Assembly: GCA_003510435.1 (NCBI GenBank)
Contig: DOMK01000018.1
Span: forward strand, 14,121-78,120
Source: Candidatus Magasanikiibacteriota bacterium
GTDB lineage: Bacteria; Patescibacteriota; Patescibacteriia; Magasanikbacterales; UBA922
Length of the DNA: 64,000 nt
Direction: 5' to 3'
Positions 14,520 through 44,535 of the stretch are shown here, in pieces. The notes below the pieces were generated by a model that did no database searches, had not been told where the DNA came from, and saw nothing but the letters and a program-made list of their open reading frames with translations. A program made the translations under genes and the position numbers. Each line of letters opens with the position of its first letter. Position 1 is the stretch's first letter.

Positions 14520-16247
14520 ATGCTTCCAAATGAAATTCTTCGCACAATCCTAAAAGATGATTTTAATATAAAAAACGAGGATTATAAAAAACATGAAATC
14601 CAAGCCAAAAAGCTAAATAAAACATTGGAACAATATTTATTTGATGAAAATATTGTGGATGAAGTGGAACTATATACCAAAGCTTCCAATCGTTATGAAG
14701 TCCCATTTGTCACTCTCAAAGGGGTAGAGATCAAAAAAGAAATTCTAAATCTAGTTCCGCCACCTCTGGCTCAAACTCACAATGTAGTGGCTTTTGACAA
14801 AGACAAACAAGAAGTAAAATTGGCCATGCTAGATCCAATGGATATCCAAACCATTGAATTTTTGCACAGAAAAATTGGTCTTATTCCCAAAGTATTTTTT
14901 ACTACTCCCAGCGATATTAAAGAAGCTCTCCATCGCTATCATGCTGATTTGGAAAGTGATGTTTCGATCAGACAATTATCTGATGGCGAAGTCGCGAGTG
15001 AAAAAGATCTGAAAAAAGCCGCTGAGGAATTACCCATTATTAATATCGTGAATAGTATTTTGGAACACGCGGTTTATGAAGGCGCGAGTGATATTCACAT
15101 TGAACCAGCTGAAAAAGAAATTGTCGTGCGCTATCGGGTAGATGGAATTTTGAAAAATGTGATGAACCTACCAAAGACTGTCCGGAGTGGGATTGTGGCT
15201 CGTATCAAAGTGTTGTCAAATTTAAAAATTGATGAACACATGAAACCCCAAGATGGCCGATTCAAAATTCAAATTCAAGATGAAAAACTATCTTTCCGTG
15301 TTTCTATTATGCCTGTCTATGATGGAGAAAAAATTGTGATGCGTCTTTTGCACGAAGGCCAAAAACCTCTCAACCTGGATCAACTTGGATTTTTACCTGA
15401 AGCCAGAAAATTAGTAGAAGAAGCAATCAAAAAACCTCATGGTATGATCCTAGTGACTGGGCCAACAGGTTCTGGAAAAACTACCACTCTTTATTCTTTA
15501 CTCGGAATTTTGAATCAGCCTGATGTAAATATTTCTACGATTGAAGACCCGATTGAATACCATGTCAAAGGTATAAATCAAAGTCAGACAAATGCGCAAG
15601 TTGGTTTTACTTTTGCGATTGGTCTACGGGCTTTCTTACGTCAAGATCCAGATATTATTATGGTCGGAGAAATTCGTGATAATGAAACTGCCCAAATCGC
15701 TGTCCATGCGGCTATGACTGGGCACTTGGTACTCTCTACACTTCATACCAATGATGCCCCAACGACTTTACCTCGTTTGTTAGACATGGACATTCCTCCA
15801 TTCTTGATTGCCTTTACCGCCAATATTATTGTGGCCCAAAGATTGGTAAGAAAAATTTGTGAACACTGTAAAAAGGAATATTATTTGGACAAGACCGAAA
15901 TTTCTGAACTAGAAAAATCGACTGACATCAAAAAAATAAAAGAACTATTTAATAAACAAAAAATAAAATTGGCTGACAAAGAAAAAAATGTCGAAACTTT
16001 AATTTTTTATCGTGGTGAAGGTTGTCGACGGTGTAATAATACTGGCTACAAAGGCAGAATTGGTATTTATGAAGTCTTGGATATTGATAAGGATATGGCC
16101 AAAAAAATTAATGAACGCGCCACCGCTGATGTGATAAAAGATTATGCCAGACAAAAAGGTATGACCACAATTATGGAAGATGGAATTGTAAAAGCTAAAC
16201 AAGGCATTACCACGATTGAGGAAATTTTGCGAGTGAGTAAGGACTAA
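14520..16247 (+). CDS. pilB: Type IV pilus assembly ATPase PilB (GspE family)
   Basis: 575 aa. Walker A GPTGSGKTTT, Asp/His boxes, C-terminal CxxC..CxxC tetracysteine motif. Confidence 0.92.
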   Translation: MLPNEILRTILKDDFNIKNEDYKKHEIQAKKLNKTLEQYLFDENIVDEVELYTKASNRYEVPFVTLKGVEIKKEILNLVPPPLAQTHNVVAFDKDKQEVKLAMLDPMDIQTIEFLHRKIGLIPKVFFTTPSDIKEALHRYHADLESDVSIRQLSDGEVASEKDLKKAAEELPIINIVNSILEHAVYEGASDIHIEPAEKEIVVRYRVDGILKNVMNLPKTVRSGIVARIKVLSNLKIDEHMKPQDGRFKIQIQDEKLSFRVSIMPVYDGEKIVMRLLHEGQKPLNLDQLGFLPEARKLVEEAIKKPHGMILVTGPTGSGKTTTLYSLLGILNQPDVNISTIEDPIEYHVKGINQSQTNAQVGFTFAIGLRAFLRQDPDIIMVGEIRDNETAQIAVHAAMTGHLVLSTLHTNDAPTTLPRLLDMDIPPFLIAFTANIIVAQRLVRKICEHCKKEYYLDKTEISELEKSTDIKKIKELFNKQKIKLADKEKNVETLIFYRGEGCRRCNNTGYKGRIGIYEVLDIDKDMAKKINERATADVIKDYARQKGMTTIMEDGIVKAKQGITTIEEILRVSKD

Positions 16248-16323
16248 ACAAATTTATATCTATTTATCTCAATGTATAAAAAATCTTGCTAAAAAATAAA
16301 AACTTCCAAGTTATTACAAGTCT

Positions 16324-17436
16324 ATGAAAAAACCTCGTGAACTTTCGTCACTAGAAATAAAACTAAACGCCTGGGTCACTAAATATCTGACTAGAATTCC
16401 TTTTATCCAAAAGATGTTTTTTATTGACCACTTGAAAACCATGATTCACGCGGGCTTGTCTATTACCGAATCTCTAGATACTTTGAGCAAAGAAATTGAA
16501 AACAAAAAACTAAAAGGCATTATTGCCGAAATTAAGATTGGTATAGAAAAAGGCAATCAACTAAGTGAAGTGCTAGCAAAATATCCCCAAGCTTTTCCCC
16601 CAATTTATGTAAAAATGGTTGAATCGGGCGAAGTCTCTGGTAAACTAGAAGAATCTCTAACTCAAATCGTAGAACAAATGCAAAAAACTCAAGAACTAAA
16701 CTCCAGTATCCGTGGGGCTATGATTTATCCAGCAGTAATCTTAGTCGCTATGGGTGGAATTGGTATTATGATGGTGACTGTAGTCTTGCCAAAATTAATG
16801 ACCTTGTTTGAAGAATTTGATACTGAATTGCCTTTGGCTACCAGAATGTTAATGGCCATCACCAACTTCATGAGCAAACCACTAAACCTAATTATAATGG
16901 TCTTGGTTATTACTGCCATAATTACGGCCTTTGTCATGTCTCTAAAAAGAATTCCTGAATTCAAAAAATTTGTTCATAAATTAAATCTTCACCTGCCTAT
17001 CATTGGCATGGTAGTAAAAAAAATAAACTTAGCCCGTTTTTCGCTTACCTTATCTTCACTTTTAAAAAGTACCATTCCAATCGTGGACGCCACAGATATT
17101 ACGGCCGAGACTTGTGGTAATGTATTATACAAAAATGCTCTGCACGAAGCAGCCGAAAGAATAAAGACTGGCACACCTTTATCAGAAATCTTGGCTGATT
17201 ATCCCAAACTTTTTCCACCGATGGTGACAGAAATGATTATGGTTGGCGAACGTTCCGGAGAAATTGATCACTTGCTCGAAGAACTGGCAAAATTTTATAG
17301 TAGTGAAGTAGACAAAACCATGAAAAATTTCACTCAAGTAATAGAACCTATCATCATTCTTCTCTTGGGTGTAGCGGTTGCCATTATGGCGGTCGCTGTG
17401 ATCACACCCATGTATACATTGGTACAGAATTTTTAA
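16324..17436 (+). CDS. pilC: Type IV pilus inner-membrane platform protein PilC (GspF family)
   Basis: 370 aa, two T2SSF repeats, three TM segments, conserved P..V..M...GE.SG blocks. Confidence 0.88.
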   Translation: MKKPRELSSLEIKLNAWVTKYLTRIPFIQKMFFIDHLKTMIHAGLSITESLDTLSKEIENKKLKGIIAEIKIGIEKGNQLSEVLAKYPQAFPPIYVKMVESGEVSGKLEESLTQIVEQMQKTQELNSSIRGAMIYPAVILVAMGGIGIMMVTVVLPKLMTLFEEFDTELPLATRMLMAITNFMSKPLNLIIMVLVITAIITAFVMSLKRIPEFKKFVHKLNLHLPIIGMVVKKINLARFSLTLSSLLKSTIPIVDATDITAETCGNVLYKNALHEAAERIKTGTPLSEILADYPKLFPPMVTEMIMVGERSGEIDHLLEELAKFYSSEVDKTMKNFTQVIEPIIILLLGVAVAIMAVAVITPMYTLVQNF

Positions 17437-17790: not shown

Positions 17791-18903
17791 ATGAATGAAT
17801 TTAGAACAGACAGAGAAGGACTAGGTATTACAGAAACTGATTTTGTTTTTTCAAAACCAGTTGAATTTAAAAAAGAAAATCCCTACAGAATCATGGGGCT
17901 TTTAAAAAGAGTTCGTGATTTATTTAGAAAAAAAATATCAGAAGAAACCGATGATAAGAAAAGAGAAAAAATAGAAACTGAATTTAAAACAGAATTAGCA
18001 AAAATTGAAGAACAAGATACACGTAATGGTGTTAACTTTTCCCGTTGTCAAATGGTTGACGTCATTAATGACTATCAAAAAGGTAAACCAGTTGAATTTG
18101 AAGCGCTTGGTCCATACATAATGGACTATAATTTAAAGACTGGTGAAATCAAGCCAGAAAATTTAACCAAAACTGATATAGTTGGCCTTGAAATTTCAAG
18201 ACTGCTTAGACAAAAATTTCCCAAAGCGAGATTGATATCCCTGTGTGATGAATACAATACTGGCATATTAGACTCAACAAATTTTCGTGGTATACCAACA
18301 GAAAAAATTATTTCTGATCCCTCTATAAAAGGATTTGTACCAAAGAAAAAAGGCTACGAAGATGATGAACCAAAAGTCACTCCACCAAATGCCACTCAAT
18401 TAACTTTACCAGATGAAACTAAAACAAATTTTAGAAAAAATTATGAACAGCTTTTAAAAAACCAAGGAATTATTAGAGACGACGACAAAGATGGCAAAGA
18501 CTATTTATTAGTTTCAGAAAGTGCAAAAACACAAGAAGCAGATGAATTAGTTAGAAGATTAGAAAAATTAGAAAAAATAAACCGAATAGACCAAGCCATA
18601 TATTTCATAAATCCTAAAGCAGAAAACGCTCTTTATCAAAAAATTAAATTAAAAGACGAAAACGGACAATGGACATGCACCGCTTTAGACGCTGCCTCCT
18701 TTCTAGGAAAAGATAATTCTAAAATAACTCACCTCATTATTTTGCCAAATGATTTTATTAAACAACAAGATCAGGTATGGGAAATTTTAAGGGTACTAGA
18801 CATACAACCAGCTAATTATCATAATATTTTTTATGATGAAAATACCCCGCCAGAACAAGTCGTTGAAACCATTCGCGAAGAAATAGAAAAATATTTAAAA
18901 TAA
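17791..18903 (+). CDS. Hypothetical charged soluble protein (370 aa) in the pilB-pilC operon
   Basis: Long intact ORF, same strand, 8 nt after the preceding gene. No recognisable motif. Confidence 0.5.
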   Translation: MNEFRTDREGLGITETDFVFSKPVEFKKENPYRIMGLLKRVRDLFRKKISEETDDKKREKIETEFKTELAKIEEQDTRNGVNFSRCQMVDVINDYQKGKPVEFEALGPYIMDYNLKTGEIKPENLTKTDIVGLEISRLLRQKFPKARLISLCDEYNTGILDSTNFRGIPTEKIISDPSIKGFVPKKKGYEDDEPKVTPPNATQLTLPDETKTNFRKNYEQLLKNQGIIRDDDKDGKDYLLVSESAKTQEADELVRRLEKLEKINRIDQAIYFINPKAENALYQKIKLKDENGQWTCTALDAASFLGKDNSKITHLIILPNDFIKQQDQVWEILRVLDIQPANYHNIFYDENTPPEQVVETIREEIEKYLK

Positions 18904-18922: not shown

Positions 18923-18954
18923 AGACTCCCCATAAAGGAGTTTTTTATTTTTTG
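18923..18954. terminator. Terminator hairpin actcc-N7-ggagt followed by a T-run (shared motif actcccca[ct]aaaggagttttt)
   Basis: agactccccataaaggagttttttattttttg. The same motif recurs at 22737-22761. Confidence 0.5.
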
Positions 18955-20396
18955 ATTCTTACAAAATTCTGGTCAGCATTCACTTCTACTACGTCACCAG
19001 TTTGAAATAATTTTGTTGCCAAACCAGTACCAACAATACAAGGCACACCAATTTCACGCGATAATATAGCCGCATGGCACATTATTCCACCTTGATCAGT
19101 CACTACTGCCCCAGCCAATCTCAGAGCAGGGACATATTCCGGGCTCGTCATAGTTGTTATCAAAACTTCGCCTTTTTTAATATTTTTAATTTCACTAGCC
19201 TCGCGAATAATCCGCACTTTACCAATATAACAACCAGCCGAAGCCGTCACACCCAAAAGTAAAGATTTTTTATTTATTACTATTTTTTTGTGTTCCATTA
19301 AAATTTTACTTGCTTCTGCACCCAAAAATATTTTTATGCTATTCTGATTAAATACAAATAAACTGTTGATACTTCTATTTTTTAATTCATCATCTTTTAC
19401 AAAAAGATTATTTAATAAAGCTTTTTCTAATTCTTTTGGCAAATAATATTGCATCAATTCGCGTTGGATATTTAATCTCTTGGCAATTTCTTCTAGTAAA
19501 CCCACAATGTAATAATGAACCAGAGTAAATTTTCCTTTTTTATAATCTTGCAAATAAGTAGCCAAACGTAAATTATTAAACAAATCTTTGTGTACTTTAT
19601 CAATTTTATATTTTTTTTCTAATTCTGTTTGCTGTTTTGGTAATTGATTAAAATATCTTTTGCTACTTAGTAGCCGACTTTCCATATCACCTTGTTTTAA
19701 AATGTGATCCAGCACGATAGAAAAATATTTTTCATTCCACAGATCCAATCCATAATCATAGGGTAACCAAGAATATTTTTGGGCATGTATTTTGATTACT
19801 TTCTCCAAATTAATATTTTTTTTGTTTTTAATTTTTAAAGCAATATTTAACAAATCATCTTCTTCCTGTTTGGCAAAAGATTTTTCTCGTGGGGCTGAAA
19901 GAATTGAATAAGTGGTTGTTAATTCTTCTGAATTATTAATTTTTTTACTTAAATATTCTTTTAAATAGCTACCCAATGACTCTTCTAAACCCAAAACTAT
20001 CGGCTCACTCCAAGGATAAGCTTGCTTATACAACTTTAAATACTTATCAAACATCTGCCAAAGTTCCTGATTGGTTTTTTTATTTAAATTAGTTTTATAA
20101 ATACCAGAAGCCAATTTGGCTAACGGCAACATTTTTTGATTATATTTTTTAATAATTTTATTTAAAAAAATTTTATCTTTTTTAACCAAGACCAAAGCTT
20201 GTTTGGCGACTTTTTTTACTCCAGCTTCCGAAGCATACCAGTACATTACCCCATTCAAATATTCCACCAGAGTAATTCCAAAAGATAGACCCAAAGAATC
20301 TTGCATATTTTTACAATAGGATTGGGCAATAATATATGCATTAGGTATTAAATGAATTCTCTCTTTTTGTTGCATGAAAATATAATCTTTATTCAT
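18945..20396 (-). CDS. PEP-utilizing enzyme mobile (swivel) domain protein
   Basis: C-terminus GGIMCHAAILSREIGVPCIVGTG....GDVVEVNADQNFVRI is the phospho-His swivel domain (PF00391-like). N-terminal ~380 aa unassigned. Confidence 0.7.
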   Translation of the reverse strand: MNKDYIFMQQKERIHLIPNAYIIAQSYCKNMQDSLGLSFGITLVEYLNGVMYWYASEAGVKKVAKQALVLVKKDKIFLNKIIKKYNQKMLPLAKLASGIYKTNLNKKTNQELWQMFDKYLKLYKQAYPWSEPIVLGLEESLGSYLKEYLSKKINNSEELTTTYSILSAPREKSFAKQEEDDLLNIALKIKNKKNINLEKVIKIHAQKYSWLPYDYGLDLWNEKYFSIVLDHILKQGDMESRLLSSKRYFNQLPKQQTELEKKYKIDKVHKDLFNNLRLATYLQDYKKGKFTLVHYYIVGLLEEIAKRLNIQRELMQYYLPKELEKALLNNLFVKDDELKNRSINSLFVFNQNSIKIFLGAEASKILMEHKKIVINKKSLLLGVTASAGCYIGKVRIIREASEIKNIKKGEVLITTMTSPEYVPALRLAGAVVTDQGGIMCHAAILSREIGVPCIVGTGLATKLFQTGDVVEVNADQNFVRIKK

Positions 20397-20401
20397 AAAA
20401 T

Positions 20402-21889
20402 TTAATTATTATTTTGTGGAGTAAGAATCCTTACTGTGCCATGATTAGCTCGCACAGCCACAACATCACCAGTCTTAATTTGGGTAGTGGCGGTGTGAGT
20501 ATCTATTATACATGGTTTACCAGCCAAACGAGCATTAATAGCGGCATGACAAAGCATTCCCCCAGCATTAGTAATTATGGCCCCGGCTTTTTTTATAATT
20601 TCTAACATTTTGTCATCAGTCATCTCGGTAATCAAAATTTCTCCAGCCTGAAACTTTTTTATATCCTCGGCTTTTTCTATCACCCGAGCAACACCTTGGG
20701 CATAGCCCTGTGCCCCCACCTTGCCAGCAATGGCTCGACCCAATTCACTTTGCTGTAAAATTTCTTGCAATTCTTCATAAACTTTTTTAACTTCCACCCC
20801 TTCAATAATTTTGTAATCCTTACCCAATACCGAAAGCAAAAAACCCTGACTAAAACGATTTTTTAGAATTTGTTTTTTTATTAAGCCACGCAACAAATTG
20901 TCCAATTCTTCAAAAGTCAAAAAAAATAAATATTTCTCATCAATGCCTGAAATTTTTGCCAGCAGTTTAAATAGCTTAATCCACAACTCTTGAACTTGCA
21001 AATTAACTCCCTGCCGATATTCGCGCCATTGTCCCAACTCTTTAAAAAACTCCAAAGGATTGGTATCCAATTTATATTTTTTCAAAATTATCATGGTCAA
21101 CTGGCGGTGTTTTTTGGCACGCGCAATCTCCTCTTTGGTATTTTTATTTTTGTCTAAAACTTTTTCACTGGTTAAAAGTTCAGCAATTTCCATTTGCGAA
21201 AAATTATAAATCTTGCCAATTCGTGCTACTTCTTTGTTGTCATAGCCCAAATCAAAACTATCAATAAATATTGCTGTAGACCAAAACTTTTCCAAAATGC
21301 TTTGCCATTGTTTCAAAAATTCTAATAATTCATTTGTATCCCATTCTGCTGGTAAACCAGTCGCATATTCCTGGCAAAACGCTTCTACTTTTTTTCCATA
21401 ATCAAAAAAACTTTCTTTTAGTTCAAAATGTCGCCGGCTTAATTCTCCATATTCTTTATAAACACTTTCTGCCATCTCTGCAAATGCCAAGGTAGTGTGC
21501 CAAAAAACCTCACAAGTGCCATTTTTAAAATACACATCACAAGTCCCCAGACCCTCATCAAAAAATTTGGGGTTAGGATGAACAATACCAGTAATTCTGG
21601 GCCAAAAAATGATCGGGCTTAAAGCCAATATTTGCCGATACATTTTGGGAGCACTCTCTTCGCTTTGTTTTGGTTCAAACTCCACAATATCATTAATTTT
21701 CAGACCATATCTTTCGCACAGCTTGTCCAGGGTGGAAAACCAGACTCCTTCAGCTTTGCCATGAAAAAGTGCAGTAATAGTATTGCGATTTATGCCAGTT
21801 TCTTGGCTAATTTCAGACATATTCTTGCCAAGTTTCTTAGCAATGGTATGGATTTTTAGTTTAATCATACTTTTTTTCAGTGGAATCAT
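20402..21889 (-). CDS. XRE-type HTH fused to a PEP-utilizing enzyme mobile domain
   Basis: N-terminal HTH (IAKKLGKNMSEISQETGINRNTITALFHG). C-terminus AGGMLCHAAINARLAGKPCIIDT...GDVVAVRANHGTVRIL is a swivel domain with the catalytic His context. Confidence 0.7.
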   Translation of the reverse strand: MIPLKKSMIKLKIHTIAKKLGKNMSEISQETGINRNTITALFHGKAEGVWFSTLDKLCERYGLKINDIVEFEPKQSEESAPKMYRQILALSPIIFWPRITGIVHPNPKFFDEGLGTCDVYFKNGTCEVFWHTTLAFAEMAESVYKEYGELSRRHFELKESFFDYGKKVEAFCQEYATGLPAEWDTNELLEFLKQWQSILEKFWSTAIFIDSFDLGYDNKEVARIGKIYNFSQMEIAELLTSEKVLDKNKNTKEEIARAKKHRQLTMIILKKYKLDTNPLEFFKELGQWREYRQGVNLQVQELWIKLFKLLAKISGIDEKYLFFLTFEELDNLLRGLIKKQILKNRFSQGFLLSVLGKDYKIIEGVEVKKVYEELQEILQQSELGRAIAGKVGAQGYAQGVARVIEKAEDIKKFQAGEILITEMTDDKMLEIIKKAGAIITNAGGMLCHAAINARLAGKPCIIDTHTATTQIKTGDVVAVRANHGTVRILTPQNNN

Positions 21890-21997
21890 TAATAATCAGT
21901 GTAATCAATGTTACGCATATTATAGTATATTCAGATAACTTTGTCAATATTTCACAGTTTTTGTAATGGTTTTATTACAAAAATGACCATAATATCA

Positions 21998-22026
21998 TTG
22001 ACAATTAGGGGAAAAATGATTATAAT
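21998..22026 (+). promoter_or_regulatory. Perfect-consensus sigma70 promoter TTGACA-17-TATAAT
   Basis: TTGACA 21998-22003, 17-nt spacer, TATAAT 22021-22026. Drives the leader and ORF at 22155. Confidence 0.55.
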
Positions 22027-22033
22027 ATCCTGT

Positions 22034-22154
22034 TTTACCTAGTGGGTAAGACGCTGATCTTTAAAAACTACTGTTTCCTGGAGGGGAATAGTAGAAAAAA
22101 TATTGTTTTACCCAGTTGGTGAAACAAAACGCTCTTTACAACGGAGGACATAAC
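22034..22154 (+). promoter_or_regulatory. ~120-nt 5' UTR with two direct repeats tgttttaccYagtNggtRa...acgct and a GGAGG Shine-Dalgarno
   Basis: Copy 1: ctgttttacctagtgggtaagacgct (22031-22056). Copy 2: ttgttttacccagttggtgaaacaaaacgct (22103-22133). GGAGG lies 8 nt before the ATG. Confidence 0.35.
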
Positions 22155-22580
22155 ATGAGCGACTGGTTTTTGCCGACAATTCCCGAAATTCTTGTCGGGA
22201 AAAAAATCGCATTCGTGTGGCCAGAAGAAAAGGGCCAGAGTGATTGGGAAAAGATAGAAGGATATGGGGCACCGGAACATTTCGTGGCTCGCGACATTCG
22301 CGAGGGGCTGAGCATTCCTCTCGAGAGAATTGATTATATAGTTCTTTACCAGGGAAAATCTGCAATTTGCACGTACAGAATATTGAGATACCTTAAAGCC
22401 TGTGGGTTCCCCGCGAAAAAAGTATTTGTTGCCCTGTGTGGATGTTCAAGGGAAGACCACGAAATCGTCATGAAAGACATGGGTTTCGAAAGTCTCGCAG
22501 GGGTGATTCCAGTACCCTGCCAAGCTTTCCATCATGTGATTTGTCAGTGGGTTCTCGCACACCACGCTTCTCCTTCTTAG
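22155..22580 (+). CDS. Hypothetical protein (GC-rich island, 141 aa)
   Basis: Strong Shine-Dalgarno; local GC about 50% against a ~33% background. No known domain. Confidence 0.5.
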   Translation: MSDWFLPTIPEILVGKKIAFVWPEEKGQSDWEKIEGYGAPEHFVARDIREGLSIPLERIDYIVLYQGKSAICTYRILRYLKACGFPAKKVFVALCGCSREDHEIVMKDMGFESLAGVIPVPCQAFHHVICQWVLAHHASPS

Positions 22581-22736
22581 ATCACTAGGTGCACAACCTG
22601 GATGATCATCGGGTTTTGCTCGATTACCCTTCAAGTCTGCACAGACAAATCGAGCCTTCCATTGTTTTATTCTTCCCTCCTTCGCTCTACCAAGCTACGG
22701 AGGATAATAAAAGGATAAAATTTAGAAAGAAAAAAA

Positions 22737-22761
22737 CAAAACTCCCCACAAAGGAGTTTTT
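22737..22761 (+). terminator. Terminator hairpin aaaactcc-ccacaaa-ggagtttt
   Basis: 8-bp stem followed by a T-run; same motif as 18923-18954. Confidence 0.5.
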
Positions 22762-22784
22762 GTGATATAATATTACCAACACAT

Positions 22785-22809
22785 AACACGAGACACATAT
22801 CACGTAACA
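22785..22809 (-). repeat. Interspersed repeat; 25-nt exact copy (reverse orientation) of 59763-59787
   Basis: rc of aacacgagacacatatcacgtaaca equals tgttacgtgatatgtgtctcgtgtt, identical to 59763-59787. Diverged copies at 27214-27250 and 32891-32920. Confidence 0.6.
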
Positions 22810-22845
22810 ATTGATATGTGATATGTGTTATATGATACGTGAATT

Positions 22846-23940
22846 ATGTTCAACAACCCTTTCCCCAACGCCTTTGGTCTAGATATTGGGGACCTATCAA
22901 TAAAATTAGTTCAACTTAGAAATGTTTCCTTGATCCGTAGGAAGCCAACTTATCAACTAATAAATTTTCGTTCTATAAGTTTACCACCTGGTTTAATTGT
23001 TAATGGTGAATTGCAAAAACCAGAAGAGGTTAGACTGCGTATTCAACGTTTATTAAAAGGTAATAAAAATCAAAAACCAATTACTGACCCATGGGTCATA
23101 TCAGTCTTACCCGAAATGCAAAGCTTTATAAAATTGATTGATACTGAACAAAATATTGAGGATCTGCTAGATGAGGATATAAAAGAACTAGCCAAAAAAC
23201 ATATTCCTTATGATGATGATGGTAGTTATTATGTGGAATGGCAAATTATGCCAAAAGTTGGTGATAAAAATAGAATCCTCATTGGCGCTGTACCAAAAAC
23301 TATTGCTGATAGTTATACTTATTTATTAGAAAGTTTAGGCTTGGGTGTAGTGGCTTTAGAAATTGAGGCCTTGCCCATTGCCCGGTCTATGATTACCGCG
23401 AGTAAAGAATATGAAAACGAAGCCAGAGCCCTTCTAGATCTCGGCGCAGCCAGGTCTAGTTTTATTGTTTATGATCATGACATTGTCCAATTTAGCACGA
23501 GCATTCCTTTTTCTGGAGAAATTATTACCACAGCTCTATCACAACAATTACATGTTAGCCATGAAGAAGCCGAGGCTTTAAAAATAAAACAGGGTTTGGA
23601 ATATAATAAAGGTAATAAAGTGTGGCGAGTAAATACTAAAATAATTGATGACTTGGTCAAAAATATAAAAGATGCCATTGAATTTTATTATTCTCATTTT
23701 TCCAATCCAAATAAAATAACCAGAATTACCATGTGTGGTGGTACGGCTAATATAAAAAAATTAGACAAAATATTATCTACCAAATTAAAAATCACGACTC
23801 GACCCGGGCACCCTTGGAAAAATCTTTCTTCCAACAAATCTATCCCTATGTCCGAAGAAGAGTCTATTAGTTATTCCACTGCTATTGGCCTAGCCCTAAG
23901 GGCGGCTGATAATCCATTTTTTACTTACGACGCTCTATGA
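22846..23940 (+). CDS. pilM: Type IV pilus assembly protein PilM (actin-like ATPase fold)
   Basis: N-terminus FGLDIGDLSIKLVQL; 364 aa; followed by pilN and pilO with overlapping stops and starts. Confidence 0.8.
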   Translation: MFNNPFPNAFGLDIGDLSIKLVQLRNVSLIRRKPTYQLINFRSISLPPGLIVNGELQKPEEVRLRIQRLLKGNKNQKPITDPWVISVLPEMQSFIKLIDTEQNIEDLLDEDIKELAKKHIPYDDDGSYYVEWQIMPKVGDKNRILIGAVPKTIADSYTYLLESLGLGVVALEIEALPIARSMITASKEYENEARALLDLGAARSSFIVYDHDIVQFSTSIPFSGEIITTALSQQLHVSHEEAEALKIKQGLEYNKGNKVWRVNTKIIDDLVKNIKDAIEFYYSHFSNPNKITRITMCGGTANIKKLDKILSTKLKITTRPGHPWKNLSSNKSIPMSEEESISYSTAIGLALRAADNPFFTYDAL

Positions 23941-24464
23941 TCCCCCACCGCTTAAATTTATTATCACCAGACAAAAGAAAACTATTAAAAAGAATGGTCA
24001 ATTTTCAATTTTTAAAAAGTTTATTAGAAATGATTTTATTTTTCTTGAGTATATTTGGGATTGCCCTCCTGGGTGGACAGTGGGTATTACAAGATCATTT
24101 TTATGCTATTACTGGTCATATTAATTCGGTCAACAATAAATACGCTGATAAAAACTTAGAAATAAAAAGTATAAATAAAACTTTAATTCAAACCGAAAAA
24201 ATCCAAAAAGAATACACGGTTTGGACCGTCAAGATAGTTGAACTGACCAATAATATTCCTGATGATATTACTTTGACTGGATTATCATTTGATAAAAATA
24301 GTAAAAAAATAAATATTACTGGTGAGGCTAACAATCGCAATGACCTACTTTTATTTAAACAAAAATTGGAAAACATCCAATGGATAAATTTGGTAGAAGT
24401 CCCCCCTGATCAATTAATCCAAAAAGATAAAATCCAATTTTCTATTACTCCACTCATGAAATAG
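23937..24464 (+). CDS. pilN: PilN-like bitopic membrane protein
   Basis: Short cytoplasmic N-terminus (RLNLLSPDKRK), one TM, periplasmic domain. Overlaps the pilM stop. Confidence 0.6.
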   Translation: MIPHRLNLLSPDKRKLLKRMVNFQFLKSLLEMILFFLSIFGIALLGGQWVLQDHFYAITGHINSVNNKYADKNLEIKSINKTLIQTEKIQKEYTVWTVKIVELTNNIPDDITLTGLSFDKNSKKINITGEANNRNDLLLFKQKLENIQWINLVEVPPDQLIQKDKIQFSITPLMK

Positions 24465-24465
24465 T

Positions 24466-25056
24466 ATGAACATGTCTCTTAAACAAAAACTTTTGATCTA
24501 TATCCTCGCCATTTTTGTCGTGGTGGTGATTGTGGGCGGATTTATCATTACTCCTACGGTTATAAAAATACTATCTTTGCGCAATGATATTAATAATATT
24601 GAGGGTGAAATGGAATCACGTTATAAAAAAATCCAATCCTTAAAGCTATCTGTTCAGAAATTGCCAATCATAAAATCTGAAACAAATAAATTTTCTGAAA
24701 TCACTATCAAACCTGGTGAAGAATTAAATGTTATTACTGAGTTAGAAAAAATTGCTATTGAAAATAATATCGAGCAAAATACTGATTTAGTTTTTGTGGA
24801 TACCAAAAAAGACAAACCTACAAATGCTACCACAAAAAAAGATAACACAGAAAAACCCTTACCCCAATATTACAAATTTTCATTTTTAAATAATGGTTAT
24901 TTTGCTGATCATATAAAATATTTACAAGCTTTGGAAAAGCTACCATATTATATGGTAATAGATAAATTAAGTTTTGAAAAAAAAAATAATGACGAAAAAC
25001 AACCAAATAAAATTACTCTTCGTTTTGATGCAATTATCTATGTGGACAATAAATAA
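24466..25056 (+). CDS. pilO: PilO-like bitopic membrane protein
   Basis: N-terminal TM followed by a coiled-coil segment; same operon. Confidence 0.5.
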   Translation: MNMSLKQKLLIYILAIFVVVVIVGGFIITPTVIKILSLRNDINNIEGEMESRYKKIQSLKLSVQKLPIIKSETNKFSEITIKPGEELNVITELEKIAIENNIEQNTDLVFVDTKKDKPTNATTKKDNTEKPLPQYYKFSFLNNGYFADHIKYLQALEKLPYYMVIDKLSFEKKNNDEKQPNKITLRFDAIIYVDNK

Positions 25057-34520: not shown

Positions 34521-34801
34521 GCCAGTTTTTTAGTATAAATTAATTTAAAGATTAGTGCCGATTCGTGTTAAGATTAGTGTTTATCCACAGACCTACTTGA
34601 CAAATCATTTTATTTGTATTAATATGTTAATACAAAGATATGAATAAAAAAACCCAACAAAATTCAAACCATCACAAAATAGACCTCAGATAAAATTTTG
34701 AAGAAGTTTTATTTTGAGGTCACCTAGAATCGCCAAACAAGCGGTTCTTTTATTTAACCTGAGTGAGTCCGAATGGACGATTTAAAGGGTTTACTCTCCG
34801 C

Positions 34802-34820
34802 CTCCCGATTAAATCGGGAT
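34802..34820. repeat. Palindromic repeat ctcccgattaaatcgggat upstream of hisG
   Basis: Same family as 12765-12785 and 13577-13596. Confidence 0.5.
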
Positions 34821-34859
34821 TGCGGGCAGACTTATTCCTCACTCCTTATTCCTTATACT

Positions 34860-35480
34860 ATGACTAATCTAAAAATAGCAATTCAAAAAAAAGGCCACCT
34901 TAGAGACGAGAGTATATTATTTCTTAATTCTTTAGGTATAAGTTGTCAACAAAAAAACAACCAACTGATTACCAAATGCCCTAATACCAATATAGAAATT
35001 ATATTTCTTCGTGATGATGATATTCCAAATTATGTAAATAAAAATCTAATTGATTTTGGTATTATTGGCGAAGATGTGATTAAAGAAAATAATAATCAGA
35101 CTAAACTAGTAAAAAAACTTGGCTTTAGCAAATGTCAACTAGTCATGGCTAGTCCTAAAGATAGTGACATAAACAGTATAAATGATCTACAAGGTAAAAG
35201 AATTGCCACTTCTTATCCCAATATTCTAAAAAAATTTCTTGATTTAAACAAAATTCAGAGCAGTATAGTACAAGTCTCTGGTTCAGTTGAAGTGGCACCA
35301 TGCTTAAACCTGGCTGACGCAGTCTGTGATCTTACTCAAACTGGTAATACTCTGAGACAATGTGGTTTAGAACAATTTACTACTGTCTTAAAATCAGAAG
35401 CAGTACTAATTGAAAACAAATTAATAAAACCAGAAAAACAGAAACTTTTAGATCTTATAAAACAATATGCAAATAGTTAA
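34860..35480 (+). CDS. hisG: ATP phosphoribosyltransferase (short form)
   Basis: MTNLKIAIQKKGHLRDESILFL...; about 206 aa. Start at 34860 rather than the listed ORF start at 34773. Confidence 0.85.
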   Translation: MTNLKIAIQKKGHLRDESILFLNSLGISCQQKNNQLITKCPNTNIEIIFLRDDDIPNYVNKNLIDFGIIGEDVIKENNNQTKLVKKLGFSKCQLVMASPKDSDINSINDLQGKRIATSYPNILKKFLDLNKIQSSIVQVSGSVEVAPCLNLADAVCDLTQTGNTLRQCGLEQFTTVLKSEAVLIENKLIKPEKQKLLDLIKQYANS

Positions 35481-36765
35481 ATTAGCACAATTTAAAACCA
35501 CAAAACGCTACAAAATTATAATGAAACGTAGTTGTCAAAATTATGATGCACTTTTTCCTATGGTAAAAAAAATTATGAATGATATTGAAAAAAATGGCGA
35601 TACCGCTATAAAAAAATACACCAAAAAATTTGATGGGATAAATATTGATAACCCAAAAGTTAGCACAAATGAAATTAAAACTGCTTACAAAAAAGTTAGT
35701 AAACAATTTCTAACAGCACTAAATCAAGCCATATCAAACATCACTGCCGTACACCAAACACAATTACCAAGTTCTGCCGAAAAAATAGTTAAACCTACAC
35801 CTGGTATAAAAATCTGGAAAAAATGGCAATCAATAGAACGAGTTGGTCTTTATGTCCCCGGTGGAAAAGCCCTTTATCCTTCTTCGGTTCTAATGAATGG
35901 TATACCAGCTAAAATTGCCGGCTGTAAAAATATTTCTATTATTACTCCACCCCGAAAAGATGGCACGATTGCACCGGAAATATTAGTAACAGCTAACATG
36001 ATTGGTATAAAAAATATTTATAAAATTGGCGGGATTCAGGCAATTGGTGCTCTCACTTATGGAACCGAAACCATACCAAAAGTAGATAAAATAGTGGGTC
36101 CTGGCAATGCTTATGTAACTGTAGCCAAAATGATTGGTCTCATGAGTGGTAAAATTGCTATTGACTCTCCAGCTGGACCATCGGAAAATTTAATTATTGC
36201 TGATAATATTGCTAATCCAAAATTTGTCACCGCTGATCTAATGTGTGATATAGAGCATGGTGGTGATTCGGCTGCCATTCTTGCTACCACTTCAAATAAA
36301 TTAGCCGAGGAAGTGAGGCGACTAATTAAAAAAGAAATCAATAAATTTAGTACTAAAAATTATATCAAACAATCAATAAAAAAATACAGTCAAATTATAA
36401 TTGCAAATTCTATCAAAGATTGTATTACTTTTGCCAATGACTACGCCCCAGAGCACATTCAGATTATGACAACCAATTCTAAAGCAATAGCAAAACAAAT
36501 CACTAATGCTGGATCAATCTTTATTGGCAGTTATACTTGTAAATCAGCTGGCGACTATGCTACTGGTGCAAACCATGTACTACCAACAGGTGGCTCAGCC
36601 AAAATGTTTTCTGGATTATCAGTCTTGGACTTTGTCCGTCTGGTAGAATATCAAACTTGTACTAAACAAGGCTTAAAAAATATTAAAAAAACCATTGAAA
36701 CTTTTGCTGAGGTAGAAAATCTACCAGCTCACAAATATTCTTGTTCAATTCGATTCAATCAATAA
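35467..36765 (+). CDS. hisD: Histidinol dehydrogenase
   Basis: 432 aa; GDTAIKKYTKKFD and conserved Zn/NAD motifs (HGGDS, DYA.G.NHVLPT). Confidence 0.9.
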   Translation: MQIVKLAQFKTTKRYKIIMKRSCQNYDALFPMVKKIMNDIEKNGDTAIKKYTKKFDGINIDNPKVSTNEIKTAYKKVSKQFLTALNQAISNITAVHQTQLPSSAEKIVKPTPGIKIWKKWQSIERVGLYVPGGKALYPSSVLMNGIPAKIAGCKNISIITPPRKDGTIAPEILVTANMIGIKNIYKIGGIQAIGALTYGTETIPKVDKIVGPGNAYVTVAKMIGLMSGKIAIDSPAGPSENLIIADNIANPKFVTADLMCDIEHGGDSAAILATTSNKLAEEVRRLIKKEINKFSTKNYIKQSIKKYSQIIIANSIKDCITFANDYAPEHIQIMTTNSKAIAKQITNAGSIFIGSYTCKSAGDYATGANHVLPTGGSAKMFSGLSVLDFVRLVEYQTCTKQGLKNIKKTIETFAEVENLPAHKYSCSIRFNQ

Positions 36766-36790
36766 TTACTTGTAGTGAGTTTATCGAACT

Positions 36791-37855
36791 ATGAAAAACT
36801 TAGTTAACAACAACATACTAAAGATGCAACCCTACAACCCGCCCATCGAAGGCCGGGCGGGTTTGGGTTATCTTTTATTAGATTTTAATGAAAGAACTGA
36901 ACCTTATGACAAATATATTAACCAATATCTAAAAAAATGCTTAAACAATAATACTCTAAATATTTACCCAGCTTATAAAAATATTTATGAAAAAATTGCC
37001 AAATATGCTGGTGTTAAAAAAGACAATATTTTAATCACAAATGGTTCTGGCCAAGCCATTGAAATAATTTTTAAAACTTTTACCCAAAAAAATGATCAAG
37101 TTATTATCCCCTCACCCAGTTTTGCTAGATTTTATCAAAATGCAAACATAAGTAATAATATTATCATCACACCACAATACAATAAAAGTGATCTTTCTTT
37201 TCCATTAAATAAAGTACTTAAAAATATAACTTCTAAAACAAAAATGATTATTATTTGTAATCCCAATAATCCCACTGGCACCAGTCTATCACTAATAGAA
37301 ATTGAGCAAATATTACAAAAAACTAAAAATTCTCTTGTCTATATTGATGAAGCATATTTTGAATTTTCAAATATTACGGCGGTGCCATTATTGAAAAAAT
37401 ATCCAAACTTAGTAATTAGTCGAACATTTTCCAAAGCCTTTGGCTTAGCTTCATTACGGATTGGTTATATTATCGCCAACGAAAAACTAATAAAAGAAAT
37501 GCAAAAAGTTCGTGGGCCTTATGATATTAATACTCTGGGTATCAAAGCAGTTGAATATGTATTAAAAAATATTTCTGGATTAAAAAATTATGTAGATGAA
37601 GTGATGACAAAATCCAAACCAATTTTAGAAAAATATTTAACACAAAAAAATATTAAATATTATAATAGCAATGCTAATTTTGTTTTGATCAAACCCACAA
37701 ATCCTAAAAAAGTTTTTAATCATCTCAAAACTAATAACATTCTAACCCGTCCTCGTATTGACTCAGTTATTGAAGGCACAATTCGGATAACTATTGGTAC
37801 AATCAAACAAACTAAAAAACTAATAGCTATACTAGATAAATTAAATATATGTTAA
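36791..37855 (+). CDS. hisC: Histidinol-phosphate aminotransferase
   Basis: Class II aminotransferase; PLP lysine context SRTFSKAFGLASLRIGY. Confidence 0.85.
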   Translation: MKNLVNNNILKMQPYNPPIEGRAGLGYLLLDFNERTEPYDKYINQYLKKCLNNNTLNIYPAYKNIYEKIAKYAGVKKDNILITNGSGQAIEIIFKTFTQKNDQVIIPSPSFARFYQNANISNNIIITPQYNKSDLSFPLNKVLKNITSKTKMIIICNPNNPTGTSLSLIEIEQILQKTKNSLVYIDEAYFEFSNITAVPLLKKYPNLVISRTFSKAFGLASLRIGYIIANEKLIKEMQKVRGPYDINTLGIKAVEYVLKNISGLKNYVDEVMTKSKPILEKYLTQKNIKYYNSNANFVLIKPTNPKKVFNHLKTNNILTRPRIDSVIEGTIRITIGTIKQTKKLIAILDKLNIC

Positions 37856-38895: not shown

Positions 38896-39479
38896 TCGCT
38901 ATTATAAATTATCAAGCTGGAAATATTACCTCAGTGGCCAATGCTCTTAATAAATTAGGCGTAGATTATGTTATCACCGCTGACAAAGAAATAATTAGAA
39001 AAGCTGACAAAATAATTTTTCCAGGCCAAGGCAGAGCGGGCCAGGCTATTAAGGAACTTAAAAAAGCGGGACTGATTGATCTGATTAAAAACACTTCAGT
39101 CCCCTTTCTTGGTATTTGTTTGGGATTACAAATCTTAGCCACGTCTTCTGATGAAGACAATACCAGATGCTTAGGTATAATTCCTGGCACAGTAAAAAAA
39201 TTCTCTTCAGAATTGAAAATACCACAAATTGGTTGGAATAAAGTAAACCTAACCAAACGATCGTTCCTAACGCAAGATATACCAGACAGTACTTATTTTT
39301 ATTTTGTCCACTCTTATTATCTCATAACTGAAAACAAATATATTATTGGTAAAACCAACTATGATATTGAATATCCAACCATTATAAATAAAAATAATTT
39401 TTATGCCACTCAATTTCACCCAGAAAAATCTGGTGACGTTGGTTTAAAATTATTAAATAATTTCTGCAAGTTATGTTAG
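38892..39479 (+). CDS. hisH: Imidazole glycerol phosphate synthase, glutaminase subunit
   Basis: Class I glutamine amidotransferase; GICLGLQ catalytic Cys, QFHPEKS. Confidence 0.85.
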   Translation: MIAIINYQAGNITSVANALNKLGVDYVITADKEIIRKADKIIFPGQGRAGQAIKELKKAGLIDLIKNTSVPFLGICLGLQILATSSDEDNTRCLGIIPGTVKKFSSELKIPQIGWNKVNLTKRSFLTQDIPDSTYFYFVHSYYLITENKYIIGKTNYDIEYPTIINKNNFYATQFHPEKSGDVGLKLLNNFCKLC

Positions 39480-44311: not shown

Positions 44312-44535
44312 ATTTAGTTTGCAATAAAATTCCATAAAAAAACTTCTAACCATAGGTAGAAGTAGTATATAAAACATCTTCCCCTTATGGGTTGGAATTA
44401 CCACCTTGTCTTAAAGATAGGTTGGTAGAGAGTCATTGGGCCAATTCCCTCGTCTCTTCTTGATATAAATTAATTGTCTGTATTTAGATTATCACCACAT
44501 CATTAAATCGTCAAACAACGACTGTGGATAACTAA

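What the first reader, a model, noticed from the sequence alone, without database searches (positions are those of the whole stretch)
18945..21889. Tandem paralogous PEP-utilizing 'swivel domain' proteins, one fused to an XRE HTH
Both ORFs end in a phosphohistidine mobile domain (..GGxxCHAAI..). Neither has a recognisable PEP/pyruvate-binding domain or a clear ATP-grasp. The downstream one starts with a DNA-binding HTH. An HTH plus a phospho-His carrier domain suggests a transcription factor regulated by phosphoryl transfer, PTS-like, in a lineage that usually lacks a PTS.
Basis: partly seen in the sequence, partly recalled or inferred. Interest (0 to 1): 0.55.

Follow-up and report, generated by a model that had tools for sequence, protein, structure and literature searches.

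The report
DNA-binding dikinase subunit and paralog
Two adjacent genes in a tiny groundwater bacterium encode the substrate-binding, phosphate-carrying half of a split ATP-dependent kinase related to rifampin phosphotransferase; one copy carries a real DNA-binding domain and probably controls its own operon, and the pair is the smallest version of large, apparently undescribed gene arrays found across ultra-small bacteria and archaea.

Summary
Two co-directional ORFs, A (18945-20396) and B (20402-21889, true start probably 21868), each end in a PEP-utilizers swivel domain with the catalytic His (GGIMCHAAI, GGMLCHAAI). B starts with a confident Cro/C1-type HTH. Neither protein has an ATP-grasp or a PEP/pyruvate barrel.

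The PTS-like reading is only partly right. The central ~300-370 residues of both proteins are homologous to the rifampin-binding domain of rifampin phosphotransferase (RPH). A and B are therefore "H components" of split RPH-type dikinases, like HpeH, PpsA and CreH. In those enzymes a separate ~320-aa ATP-grasp protein phosphorylates the swivel His.

Relatives encode that ATP-grasp gene in the same cluster. This 64-kb window does not.

B-family genes sit behind a strong promoter flanked by a conserved palindrome, here at 21958-21983, which suggests autoregulation. One fifth of HTH-fused relatives have lost the His, so phosphotransfer is not always needed for their regulatory role.

The wider family forms arrays of up to 15 modules, and fusion proteins with up to 10 modules, in CPR bacteria and DPANN archaea. 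Substrates are unknown. I rate this a new variant of a known kind, of moderate to high interest.

The parts
20402..21868 (-). Gene B: HTH + truncated RPH-type substrate-binding domain + phosphohistidine swivel domain. The ORF extends to 21889; the likely start is Met8 at 21868, giving 488 aa.
   Evidence: ORF. Domains. All homologues start at MIKLK. AlphaFold model pLDDT 84. dN/dS 0.07-0.11.
21668..21847 (-). Cro/C1 (XRE)-type helix-turn-helix domain of B, residues 15-74. T31, N34, R35 and N36 are invariant in the family.
   Evidence: Pfam HTH_26 E 2.9e-11. Invariant columns. Helices 13-20, 24-31, 35-42 and 51-61 in the model. Foldseek matches to CylR2, SinR and Stl at rmsd 1.3-1.8 A. Translation.
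20747..21649 (-). Central helical domain of B, residues ~81-381. It is homologous to the RPH rifampin-binding domain but lacks a ~70-90-aa segment that other family members and A have.
   Evidence: Local cenB HMM hits. Gap in alignment A1, columns 269-357. hhalign shows the gap corresponds to A 179-246. Top Foldseek hits are RPH, E 1e-10.
20420..20737 (-). Swivel (PEP-utilizers mobile) domain of B, residues 385-490. The catalytic His448 codon is at 20546-20548.
18945..20396 (-). Gene A: RPH-type substrate-binding domain + swivel domain, 483 aa. It starts 5 nt after B's stop codon.
   Evidence: ORF. Model pLDDT 90.7. Foldseek to RPH 5fbt/5hv1/5fbu, E ~2e-13, TM 0.55 over 475-530 columns. Aligns to the part of 806-aa PPDK_N-containing proteins that follows the ATP-grasp. 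dN/dS 0.12.
19266..20357 (-). Central helical (substrate-binding-like) domain of A, residues 14-377.
   Evidence: Local cenA HMM, 458 bits. phmmer: A 247-481 matches RPH 637-865. Foldseek.
18951..19256 (-). Swivel domain of A, residues 381-482. The catalytic His441 codon is at 19074-19076.
21919..21947 (-). Consensus sigma-70-type promoter of the B-A operon: TTGACA, 17 nt, TATAAT (12 of 12 matches).
   Evidence: Nearly identical in the relatives L001/L003 and L009.
21958..21983 (.). Perfect inverted repeat TTTTTGTAAT-N6-ATTACAAAAA, 10 nt upstream of the -35 hexamer and between two divergent promoters. Candidate operator of B.
   Evidence: It is the only zero-mismatch site in the window. It is conserved in L001 and L009, and an analogous palindrome (TGNCTAGT..ACTAGNCA) lies beside the -35 in most distant family members (7 of 11 by the later regex count).
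21998..22026 (+). Divergent consensus promoter (12 of 12 matches). It faces a GC-rich 141-aa ORF (22155-22580) and shares the operator region.
   Evidence: The ORF has a GGAGG Shine-Dalgarno sequence. GC is 47% against 35% for the window, and the ORF is not conserved in relatives.
18923..18943 (.). Hairpin flanked by an A-run and a T-run, between the convergent stop codons of A and the 370-aa ORF. It is terminator-like in both directions.

Best explanation
A and B are paralogous 'H components' of a split, RPH-type ATP-dependent dikinase. Each has a helical substrate-binding domain homologous to the rifampin-binding domain of rifampin phosphotransferase, followed by a swivel domain whose His carries the phosphoryl group.

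In the characterised relatives (RPH, HpeHI, PpsAB, CreHI), an ATP-grasp domain or subunit pyrophosphorylates the His from ATP and the gamma-phosphate is lost. The swivel domain then delivers the beta-phosphate to a hydroxyl of the bound small molecule.

A is inferred to be such an enzyme module. Its substrate is unknown, and it depends on a stand-alone ATP-grasp protein that is not encoded in this window.

B is the same module with an N-terminal XRE-type HTH. It is inferred to bind, probably as a dimer, the palindrome at 21958-21983 next to its own promoter and to autoregulate the B-A operon. In that role it acts like a one-component regulator or 'trigger enzyme', with the dikinase module as the sensor. 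In this lineage B has lost a conserved piece of the substrate-binding domain but kept the His. It is therefore more likely a regulator that reports ligand, partner or phosphorylation state than an efficient kinase.

Shown here: the domain architecture, the homology, conservation of the pair, purifying selection, the promoter and palindrome, and linkage to ATP-grasp genes in relatives.

Inferred: DNA binding at the palindrome, the sign of regulation, the phosphoryl donor, the substrate, and any effect of His~P on DNA binding.
For: Architecture:
- Pfam and NCBIfam hits.
- phmmer to PDB: A 247-481 matches RPH 637-865.
- AlphaFold models with pLDDT 90.7 (A) and 84.1 (B).
- Top Foldseek hits are all RPH structures: A at E 1.8e-13 and TM 0.55 over 475-530 columns, B at E 1.4e-10.
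- A aligns to the post-ATP-grasp part of 806-aa PPDK_N + X + swivel proteins.
- The A and B families are homologous end to end.

Mechanistic precedent: HpeHI, PpsAB and CreHI are two-component RPH homologues with a conserved T/SxxGGxxxH motif (PMC12167813). A has TDQGGIMCH and B has TNAGGMLCH.

Partner:
- In L004-L007 the HTH gene is followed by further swivel proteins and a PPDK_N gene.
- In L006 the HTH protein is the only swivel protein beside the PPDK_N gene.
- PPDK_N is present in 25 of 48 loci of 15 kb or more.
- The A orthologue P0132 heads a ~33-kb array that ends in PPDK_N.
- Stand-alone PPDK_N is common and 65-90% conserved in Magasanikbacteria.

Regulation:
- Perfect promoter and perfect inverted repeat.
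- The promoter region is conserved in close relatives.
- Palindromes abut the -35 in most distant family members (7 of 11 by the later regex count), and L015 and L028 have a second copy downstream of the -10.
- HTH residues T31, N34, R35 and N36 are invariant.
- An independent MerR/excisionase-type HTH fusion exists in the A family (P0145).

Functionality: dN/dS is 0.07-0.12.
Against: - No ATP-grasp gene lies in the 64-kb window, nor within 10 kb of the pair in the two closest relatives. The phosphoryl donor in this organism is therefore unidentified.
- B lacks a segment carrying motifs conserved in both families, so its catalytic competence is doubtful.
- 10 of 49 HTH-fused representatives lack the His and about five lack the swivel domain. 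Phosphotransfer is therefore not a general requirement for whatever these HTH proteins do.
- The operator assignment is comparative only. The motif-enrichment statistic was computed on the same regions the motif was derived from.
- The palindrome is centred near -58, which fits activation as well as repression.
- No substrate can be named.
Confidence: 0.7

Rival explanations
1. One reading: B is a PTS-like, PEP-driven phosphorelay target. An EI-like enzyme would pass phosphate from PEP to the swivel His, and that would switch the transcription factor.
For: The swivel domain is the same fold as the EI N-terminal His domain, with weak hits to PtsI (E 4e-6 to 7e-4). The His is intact. The HTH is genuine.
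Against: The swivel domains are much closer to PEP synthase and RPH-type proteins than to EI. The rest of the protein is an RPH-type substrate-binding domain. The linked partner in relatives is an ATP-grasp, not an EI barrel. No PF02896 barrel or HPr is found in the window.
Confidence: 0.04
2. B is a ligand-sensing one-component regulator and an enzyme-derived pseudoenzyme. Its central domain binds a small molecule and controls the HTH. The swivel His plays no part in regulation, and A is the only catalytic module.
For: 20% of HTH-fused representatives have lost the His, and several consist of HTH plus central domain only. By contrast, none of ~320 non-HTH modules has lost it. B here has a deletion in the substrate-binding domain. 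Operators are conserved irrespective of His status; L028 is an example.
Against: 80% of the subfamily, including this B, keep a perfectly canonical GGxxCHAAI motif and a swivel domain under purifying selection. In L006 the HTH protein is the only possible phospho-acceptor for the adjacent ATP-grasp. The deletion in B removes part of the presumed ligand site, which also argues against pure ligand sensing here.
Confidence: 0.22
3. The pair is a decaying remnant of a larger array. Without an ATP-grasp partner it is on its way to loss and has no current function.
For: It is the smallest array seen, with 2 modules against a median of 3 and up to 15 elsewhere. No PPDK_N is nearby. B carries an internal deletion. 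The neighbourhood is variable, with GC-rich inserts that differ between close relatives.
Against: Both ORFs are intact in three diverged relatives, with dN/dS of 0.07-0.12 at dS of 0.34 to ~1.2 for the pairs used. The catalytic motifs are intact. The promoter is a perfect consensus and is conserved.
Confidence: 0.04

Closest known systems
H components of two-component small-molecule dikinases: HpeH (hydroxyphenylethanone kinase), PpsA (phenylphosphate synthase), CreH (PMC12167813)
   Same: The same two-domain plan: an RPH-type substrate-binding domain plus a C-terminal swivel domain with T/SxxGGxxxH. They depend on a separate ~320-340-aa ATP-grasp protein, which relatives of A and B encode in the same cluster.
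   Different: [quoted passage not shown] A and B are shorter (~480 aa against ~600-650). No ATP-grasp gene is adjacent here. No aromatic-catabolism genes are nearby. B carries an HTH, which was not seen in the one paper on these enzymes read here (PMC12167813).
Rifampin phosphotransferase (RPH; PDB 5fbt, 5hv1) and RPH-like single-chain enzymes (NCBIfam PRK06241 group)
   Same: It is the best structural match for both proteins across the central and swivel domains. Sequence matches extend into the rifampin-binding domain. The catalytic His lies near the C terminus.
   Different: RPH has its ATP-grasp fused at the N terminus, and A and B have none. Identity is only 13-17%. Nothing indicates rifamycin as the substrate.
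PTS Enzyme I and PTS-controlled transcription factors (PRD regulators)
   Same: A phosphohistidine swivel domain of the same fold, and the idea of transcription control by His phosphorylation.
   Different: A and B have no PEP-binding barrel, HPr, EII or PRD domains. The donor in relatives is predicted to be ATP through an ATP-grasp. Only the swivel domain is shared.
Trigger enzymes: enzyme/DNA-binding fusions such as BirA, PutA and NadR (from general knowledge, not tested here)
   Same: An enzyme module fused to a DNA-binding domain that regulates its own pathway genes.
   Different: The enzyme class is different. No dikinase-HTH fusion turned up in the literature searched.
PEP synthase / pyruvate phosphate dikinase
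   Same: The swivel domain matches best (up to 52-54% identity over ~90 aa), and the ATP-grasp partner in relatives is the same type.
   Different: A and B have no PEP/pyruvate TIM-barrel domain and no fused ATP-grasp. All NCBIfam scores are far below the equivalog cut-offs.

Membership tests
Two-component RPH-type dikinase, H component (HpeH/PpsA/CreH-like) | C-terminal swivel domain with the T/SxxGGxxxH phosphohistidine motif | tested here: met
   A has TDQGGIMCH and B has TNAGGMLCH. PF00391 E 2.5e-21 and 2.2e-18. The motif definition comes from PMC12167813.
Two-component RPH-type dikinase, H component (HpeH/PpsA/CreH-like) | N-terminal domain homologous to the RPH rifampin/substrate-binding domain | tested here: met
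   Foldseek: A to RPH at E 1.8e-13, TM 0.55, 475-530 columns; B to RPH at E 1.4e-10. phmmer: A 247-481 to RPH 637-865. B carries an internal deletion.
Two-component RPH-type dikinase, H component (HpeH/PpsA/CreH-like) | A separate ATP-grasp (PPDK_N) I component encoded with it | tested here: not met
   None in the 64-kb window or within 10 kb in L001 and L009. It is met in relatives L004-L007, L026 and L086/L087. The rest of this genome could not be searched.
Two-component RPH-type dikinase, H component (HpeH/PpsA/CreH-like) | ATP-dependent phosphorylation of a small-molecule hydroxyl through His~P | not testable with these tools
   Needs biochemistry. The substrate is unknown.
Rifampin phosphotransferase (RPH) | Single chain: ATP-grasp + rifampin-binding domain + swivel domain | tested here: not met
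   No ATP-grasp in A or B. NCBIfam RIF_Ptrans_rph scores 65.9 and 52.5 bits against a cut-off of 999.
PTS (Enzyme I / HPr phosphorelay) | PEP-binding C-terminal barrel (PF02896) in the swivel protein or a partner | tested here: not met
   Absent from A and B. Full-length PEP synthases match the window only through their swivel domains.
PTS (Enzyme I / HPr phosphorelay) | HPr and EII components present | tested here: not met
No PTS domains appear among the 30 neighbouring proteins scanned. The whole genome was not available.
XRE/Cro-C1 family transcription regulators | Helix-turn-helix domain of the Cro/C1 type | tested here: met
   PF13443 at 43.9 bits against a cut-off of 22. The modelled fold matches CylR2, SinR and Stl.
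XRE/Cro-C1 family transcription regulators | Binds a palindromic operator near a promoter | tested here: inconclusive
   A perfect inverted repeat lies next to the -35 and is conserved in relatives, with analogous palindromes family-wide. Binding itself was not tested.
PEP synthase / PPDK | ATP-grasp + swivel + PEP/pyruvate barrel; score at the equivalog level | tested here: not met
   TIGR01418 scores 113 and 89.7 bits against a cut-off of 739.75. Only the swivel region aligns.

The most novel reading that the evidence does not exclude
B may represent a previously unrecognised route of transcription control. An ATP-grasp dikinase subunit would phosphorylate the swivel His of an HTH-fused module, and His~P, drained when substrate is present, would set operator occupancy. 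That would be a third His-phosphorylation signalling logic beside two-component systems and PTS/PRD regulators. It would sit at the head of a CPR/DPANN-wide 'one ATP-grasp, many substrate modules' dikinase platform whose hypervariable modules trap or modify many different scavenged small molecules.
Probability: 0.2. Interest if true: 0.8.

Novelty: new variant of a known kind. Interest (0 to 1): 0.6.

Why it matters
Split RPH-type dikinases were recognised as a subfamily only recently, and only for aromatic catabolism (PMC12167813).

Here the same machinery turns up in ultra-small symbiotic bacteria and archaea that have very little metabolism of their own. It occupies up to ~33 kb of contiguous sequence. 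The ATP-grasp and swivel parts are highly conserved (~55-58% identity across both domains of life). The substrate-binding domains are extremely diversified (~17% identity). Phosphatase genes are interleaved with the modules.

That pattern predicts a modular system for phosphorylating many different small molecules, whether for salvage, trapping or detoxification. It has no assigned role in CPR/DPANN biology in the literature I could search.

The HTH-fused member offers a practical entry point. It has a defined operator and a defined protein, so one can test whether a dikinase module can act as a transcriptional sensor, and whether His phosphorylation or ligand binding is the signal.

Tried and rejected
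- ATP-grasp in A or B: rejected by Pfam, the local PPDK_N HMM and the structure models.
- ATP-grasp, EI barrel or HPr elsewhere in the window: none found.
- The 370-aa convergent neighbour (17791-18903) as a hidden partner: it has no Pfam hit, only a weak PADLOC hit, and is not conserved next to the pair in relatives.
- Anti-phage defence system: no meaningful PADLOC hits.
- Phage origin: no relatives in IMG/VR.
- Structured RNA in the 950-nt region upstream of B: no Rfam hit at gathering threshold.
- Whether a close relative's genome holds PPDK_N elsewhere: the candidate tried (P0239) came from a different assembly, so this stays unanswered.
- The divergent upstream gene as a conserved part of the system: rejected for this lineage, because it differs in the window, L001 and L009. 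More distant HTH loci do share a divergent histidine-phosphatase-like gene and a downstream HD protein.
- Literature searches for HTH-swivel fusions or CPR/DPANN swivel arrays found nothing relevant beyond the HpeHI paper and one mention of rph-like hits in CPR resistome screening.
Full report
**1. What is there**

The minus strand carries two co-directional ORFs. B runs 20402-21889 (495 aa) and A runs 18945-20396 (483 aa), with five bases between B's stop codon and A's start.

- Pfam finds a PEP-utilizers mobile ("swivel") domain at the C terminus of each (E 2.5e-21 and 2.2e-18). It also finds a Cro/C1-type HTH (HTH_26, E 2.9e-11, above the gathering score) at B residues 15-74.
- The phosphohistidine motifs are GGIMCHAAI (His441 codon at 19074-19076) and GGMLCHAAI (His448 codon at 20546-20548).
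- Every homologue of B begins MIKLK, so B most likely starts at Met8 (21868).
- The window is chromosomal DNA of a Candidatus Magasanikbacteria (CPR/Patescibacteria) organism from a groundwater metagenome. It carries rpoB/rpoC, ssb, type IV pilus genes, a his operon, uvrA and a class II ribonucleotide reductase.
- The B-A pair is conserved in related Magasanikbacteria: B at 84-86% identity and A at 56-76%.
- Both genes are under purifying selection. dN/dS is 0.07-0.11 for B and 0.12 for A.

**2. What the non-swivel parts are**

- BLASTP aligns A and B only over their last 224 residues (34% identity). Profile-profile comparison of the two families is unambiguous, though: probability 100%, E 1.3e-77, with A 23-483 matching B 98-494.
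- phmmer against PDB sequences extends the match of A beyond the swivel domain into rifampin phosphotransferase (A 247-481 to RPH 637-865).
- AlphaFold models built from family alignments are confident: A has pLDDT 90.7 and pTM 0.86, B has pLDDT 84.1 and pTM 0.71.
- The top Foldseek hits in the PDB for both are the six RPH entries. A scores E 1.8e-13 with TM 0.55 over 475-530 columns, and B scores E 1.4e-10.
- PEP synthase, PPDK, pyruvate kinase and Enzyme I match only through the ~100-residue swivel domain.
- In B, residues 13-68 form the helices expected of an XRE HTH. They superpose on CylR2, SinR and SaPI2 Stl at 1.3-1.8 A, and a disordered linker (72-79) joins them to the rest.
- A's homologues include 806-aa proteins with a PPDK_N ATP-grasp at the N terminus. 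A aligns to everything after that ATP-grasp.

So neither protein contains an ATP-grasp or a PEP/pyruvate barrel. Both are "RPH minus the ATP-grasp".

**3. The known kind**

That architecture is the H component of two-component small-molecule dikinases. A 2025 JBC paper characterised HpeHI. It showed that HpeH corresponds to the swivel plus rifampin-binding domains of RPH and that HpeI is the ATP-grasp.

The paper groups PpsAB (phenylphosphate synthase) and CreHI with HpeHI, and reports the following:
- The conserved motif is T/SxxGGxxxH.
- Mutating the His abolishes activity.
- HpeH alone can shuttle phosphate between substrates.

All of this comes from PMC12167813. A and B carry the motif (TDQGGIMCH, TNAGGMLCH).

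**4. The partner**

The window has no ATP-grasp of this type. tblastn with six PPDK_N-containing proteins, with full-length PEP synthases and with HPr found only the two swivel domains. A local PPDK_N HMM found nothing among all window ORFs of 70 aa or more. The two closest relatives also lack one within 10 kb.

More distant members of the HTH-fused family do have one:
- L004, L005 and L007 have the HTH gene, then further swivel proteins, then a PPDK_N gene or fusion.
- L006 has only the HTH protein, a conserved HD-domain protein and a stand-alone PPDK_N. There the HTH protein is the only possible phospho-acceptor.
- The A orthologue P0132 (41% identical) is the first gene of a ~33-kb array of about 12 modules that ends in a PPDK_N gene.
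- Stand-alone ~325-aa PPDK_N proteins are abundant and 65-90% identical to one another in Magasanikbacteria.

The most economical reading is that this organism encodes the ATP-grasp elsewhere. I could not verify this.

**5. Evidence that the HTH works as a regulator**

- B is preceded by a perfect TTGACA-17-TATAAT promoter (21947-21919).
- Ten bases upstream of the -35 lies a perfect 10+10 inverted repeat, TTTTTGTAAT-N6-ATTACAAAAA (21958-21983). It is the only zero-mismatch occurrence in the window.
- The repeat sits between this promoter and a second, divergent perfect promoter (21998-22026).
- The promoter and palindrome are conserved in the 84-86% relatives, while the flanking DNA is not.
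- Most distant family members examined also have a palindrome abutting the -35 of the HTH gene (7 of 11 by the later regex count). The recurring form is TGNCTAGT-N-ACTAGNCA. L015 and L028 have a second copy between the -10 and the start codon, which is the usual arrangement for repression.
- Counted with a loose regex, the motif occurs at 8 per kb in the 160 nt upstream of these genes against 0.17 per kb in the rest of the loci. The motif was derived from those same regions, so that number is descriptive and not a test.
- HTH residues T31, N34, R35 and N36 are invariant in the family.
- A second, independent fusion exists in the A family: a MerR/excisionase-type HTH (P0145).

I infer autoregulation by B. 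The sign is not determined, because the operator centre near -58 fits either activation or repression.

**6. Is the His needed for regulation?**

An exhaustive HMMER search of 1.84 billion cluster representatives with B's HTH plus central region found about 40 full-length fusion proteins at E of 1e-29 or better. The family is small but real.
- Among 49 representatives with HTH, central domain and swivel domain, 39 keep the catalytic His and 10 do not. About five further proteins have the HTH and central domain but no swivel.
- In contrast, 331 of 333 swivel modules in 82 genomic loci keep the His, and the two exceptions are HTH-family proteins.
- Loss of the phospho-acceptor is therefore specific to the HTH subfamily. 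For part of the family, the regulatory role does not need phosphotransfer.
- This window's B keeps a canonical His. It has, however, lost a ~70-90-residue segment of the central domain that carries motifs conserved in both families (SF..EE and KY.W.P.DY in A).

A ligand- or partner-sensing pseudoenzyme is a serious rival.

**7. The wider system**

I scanned one genome per species for B relatives and annotated the loci with local HMMs. The X+swivel family is spread over many CPR lineages and DPANN archaea (Woese-, Nano-, Micr- and Pacearchaeota).

- Of 82 loci, 47 have three or more modules and 33 have five or more. L070 has 15 module genes in a row.
- Single polypeptides combine one N-terminal ATP-grasp with up to 10 X+swivel modules: L064 is at least 4711 aa (its ORF runs off the contig end) and L055 is 3762 aa.
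- Median pairwise identity is 53-55% for swivel domains, 58% for ATP-grasp domains and 17% for central domains. The figures are essentially the same within and between loci.
- Of 75 non-module genes embedded in arrays, 12 are histidine-phosphatase-superfamily proteins, 7 are HD proteins, 3 are HAD proteins and 1 is LMWPc.

This looks like one conserved phosphoryl-donor machine serving many diversified substrate-binding modules, accompanied by phosphatases. The window's pair is its minimal form, headed by the HTH member.

I found no description of these arrays or of the HTH fusion in the searchable literature. The one exception is a passing mention of rph-like hits in a CPR resistome screen. 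The absence holds only for that library.

**8. Verdict**

- Observation: confirmed.
- Interpretation: partly supported. The HTH and the phospho-His carrier are real. The system is not PTS-like but an RPH/HpeH-type split dikinase. Phospho-control of DNA binding is untested.
- Novelty: a new variant of a known kind, namely an HTH-fused H component and a minimal member of a large CPR/DPANN expansion.
- Main gaps: the phosphoryl donor in this genome, the substrates, and direct evidence for DNA binding.

Noticed in passing
Loci L011, L014, L021, L035, L048, L052, L054, L055, L063, L064, L065, L070, L073, L086/L087 (whole loci): CPR bacteria and DPANN archaea carry long tandem arrays of X+swivel paralogues (up to 15 genes; ~33 kb in one Magasanikbacterium). 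They also carry giant proteins with one ATP-grasp followed by up to 10 X+swivel modules (3762 aa; at least 4711 aa in L064, whose ORF runs off the contig end). Swivel and ATP-grasp domains are ~55% identical across both domains of life, while central domains are ~17% identical.
   Followed up: partly
Array loci, e.g. L086:12930-13859, L087:7872-8801, L087:7282-7860, L006:9695-10288, L007:5139-5726: Phosphatase-type genes are interleaved in the arrays: His_Phos_1 in 12 of 75 embedded genes, HD in 7, HAD in 3 and LMWPc in 1. Distant HTH-fusion loci share a divergent RHG-motif (histidine-phosphatase-like) gene upstream and a 50-60% conserved HD protein downstream.
   Followed up: partly
window 21890-22845: This ~950-nt stretch has higher GC than its surroundings. 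It holds a 141-aa ORF (22155-22580, 47% GC against 35% for the window) with a GGAGG ribosome-binding site and a perfect divergent promoter (21998-22026). A hairpin (22031-22053) lies in its leader. There is no confident Pfam hit (only DUF364 at E 0.0027, below its gathering score) and no Rfam hit at gathering threshold. The corresponding gene differs in each close relative: a coiled-coil-like protein in L001 and a different ~360-aa ORF, not scanned against Pfam, in L009.
   Followed up: partly
window 14520-17436 and 22846-25056: The type IV pilus genes pilB and pilC are separated from pilM and the two ORFs downstream of it (probably pilN/pilO; not scanned) by a ~5.4-kb block. The block holds a DUF3147 protein, a 370-aa protein with no family, A, B and the GC-rich ORF. 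A pilM gene also lies just beyond the array in L005.
   Followed up: no
window 34773-41550: A histidine biosynthesis operon: hisG, hisD, hisC, a fused HAD-phosphatase/IGPD hisB, a 491-aa protein with two His_biosynth domains, and two or three short ORFs that were not scanned. From general knowledge, such operons are unusual in CPR genomes.
   Followed up: no
window 44371-44469 and 42415-44199: A SAM riboswitch (64.5 bits) lies upstream of a 594-aa protein that combines an NTP_transf_3 (MobA-like) N terminus with a cobalamin-independent methionine synthase catalytic domain.
   Followed up: no
window 1482-2483: A 333-aa protein with RhuM-family and Fic/DOC domains. Fic genes also occur inside swivel arrays (L086:16838-17878).
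   Followed up: no
P0056: A 525-aa swivel protein with PF27448 is annotated as coming from the scorpion Centruroides sculpturatus. It may be contamination or horizontal transfer. Several MAG labels also look wrong for their gene content. For example, P0009 is labelled 'Bathyarchaeia' although its locus L006 encodes a penicillin-binding protein and RuvC; some CPR-like loci from the genome scan are labelled 'uncultured Gammaproteobacteria'.
   Followed up: no
A versus B across relatives (window, L001, L009): B is much better conserved than A between the same genomes. B is 84-93% identical, while A is 56-76% (the window's A is 76% identical to L009's but only 56% to L001's). The plain module therefore evolves or is exchanged faster than the HTH member.
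   Followed up: partly
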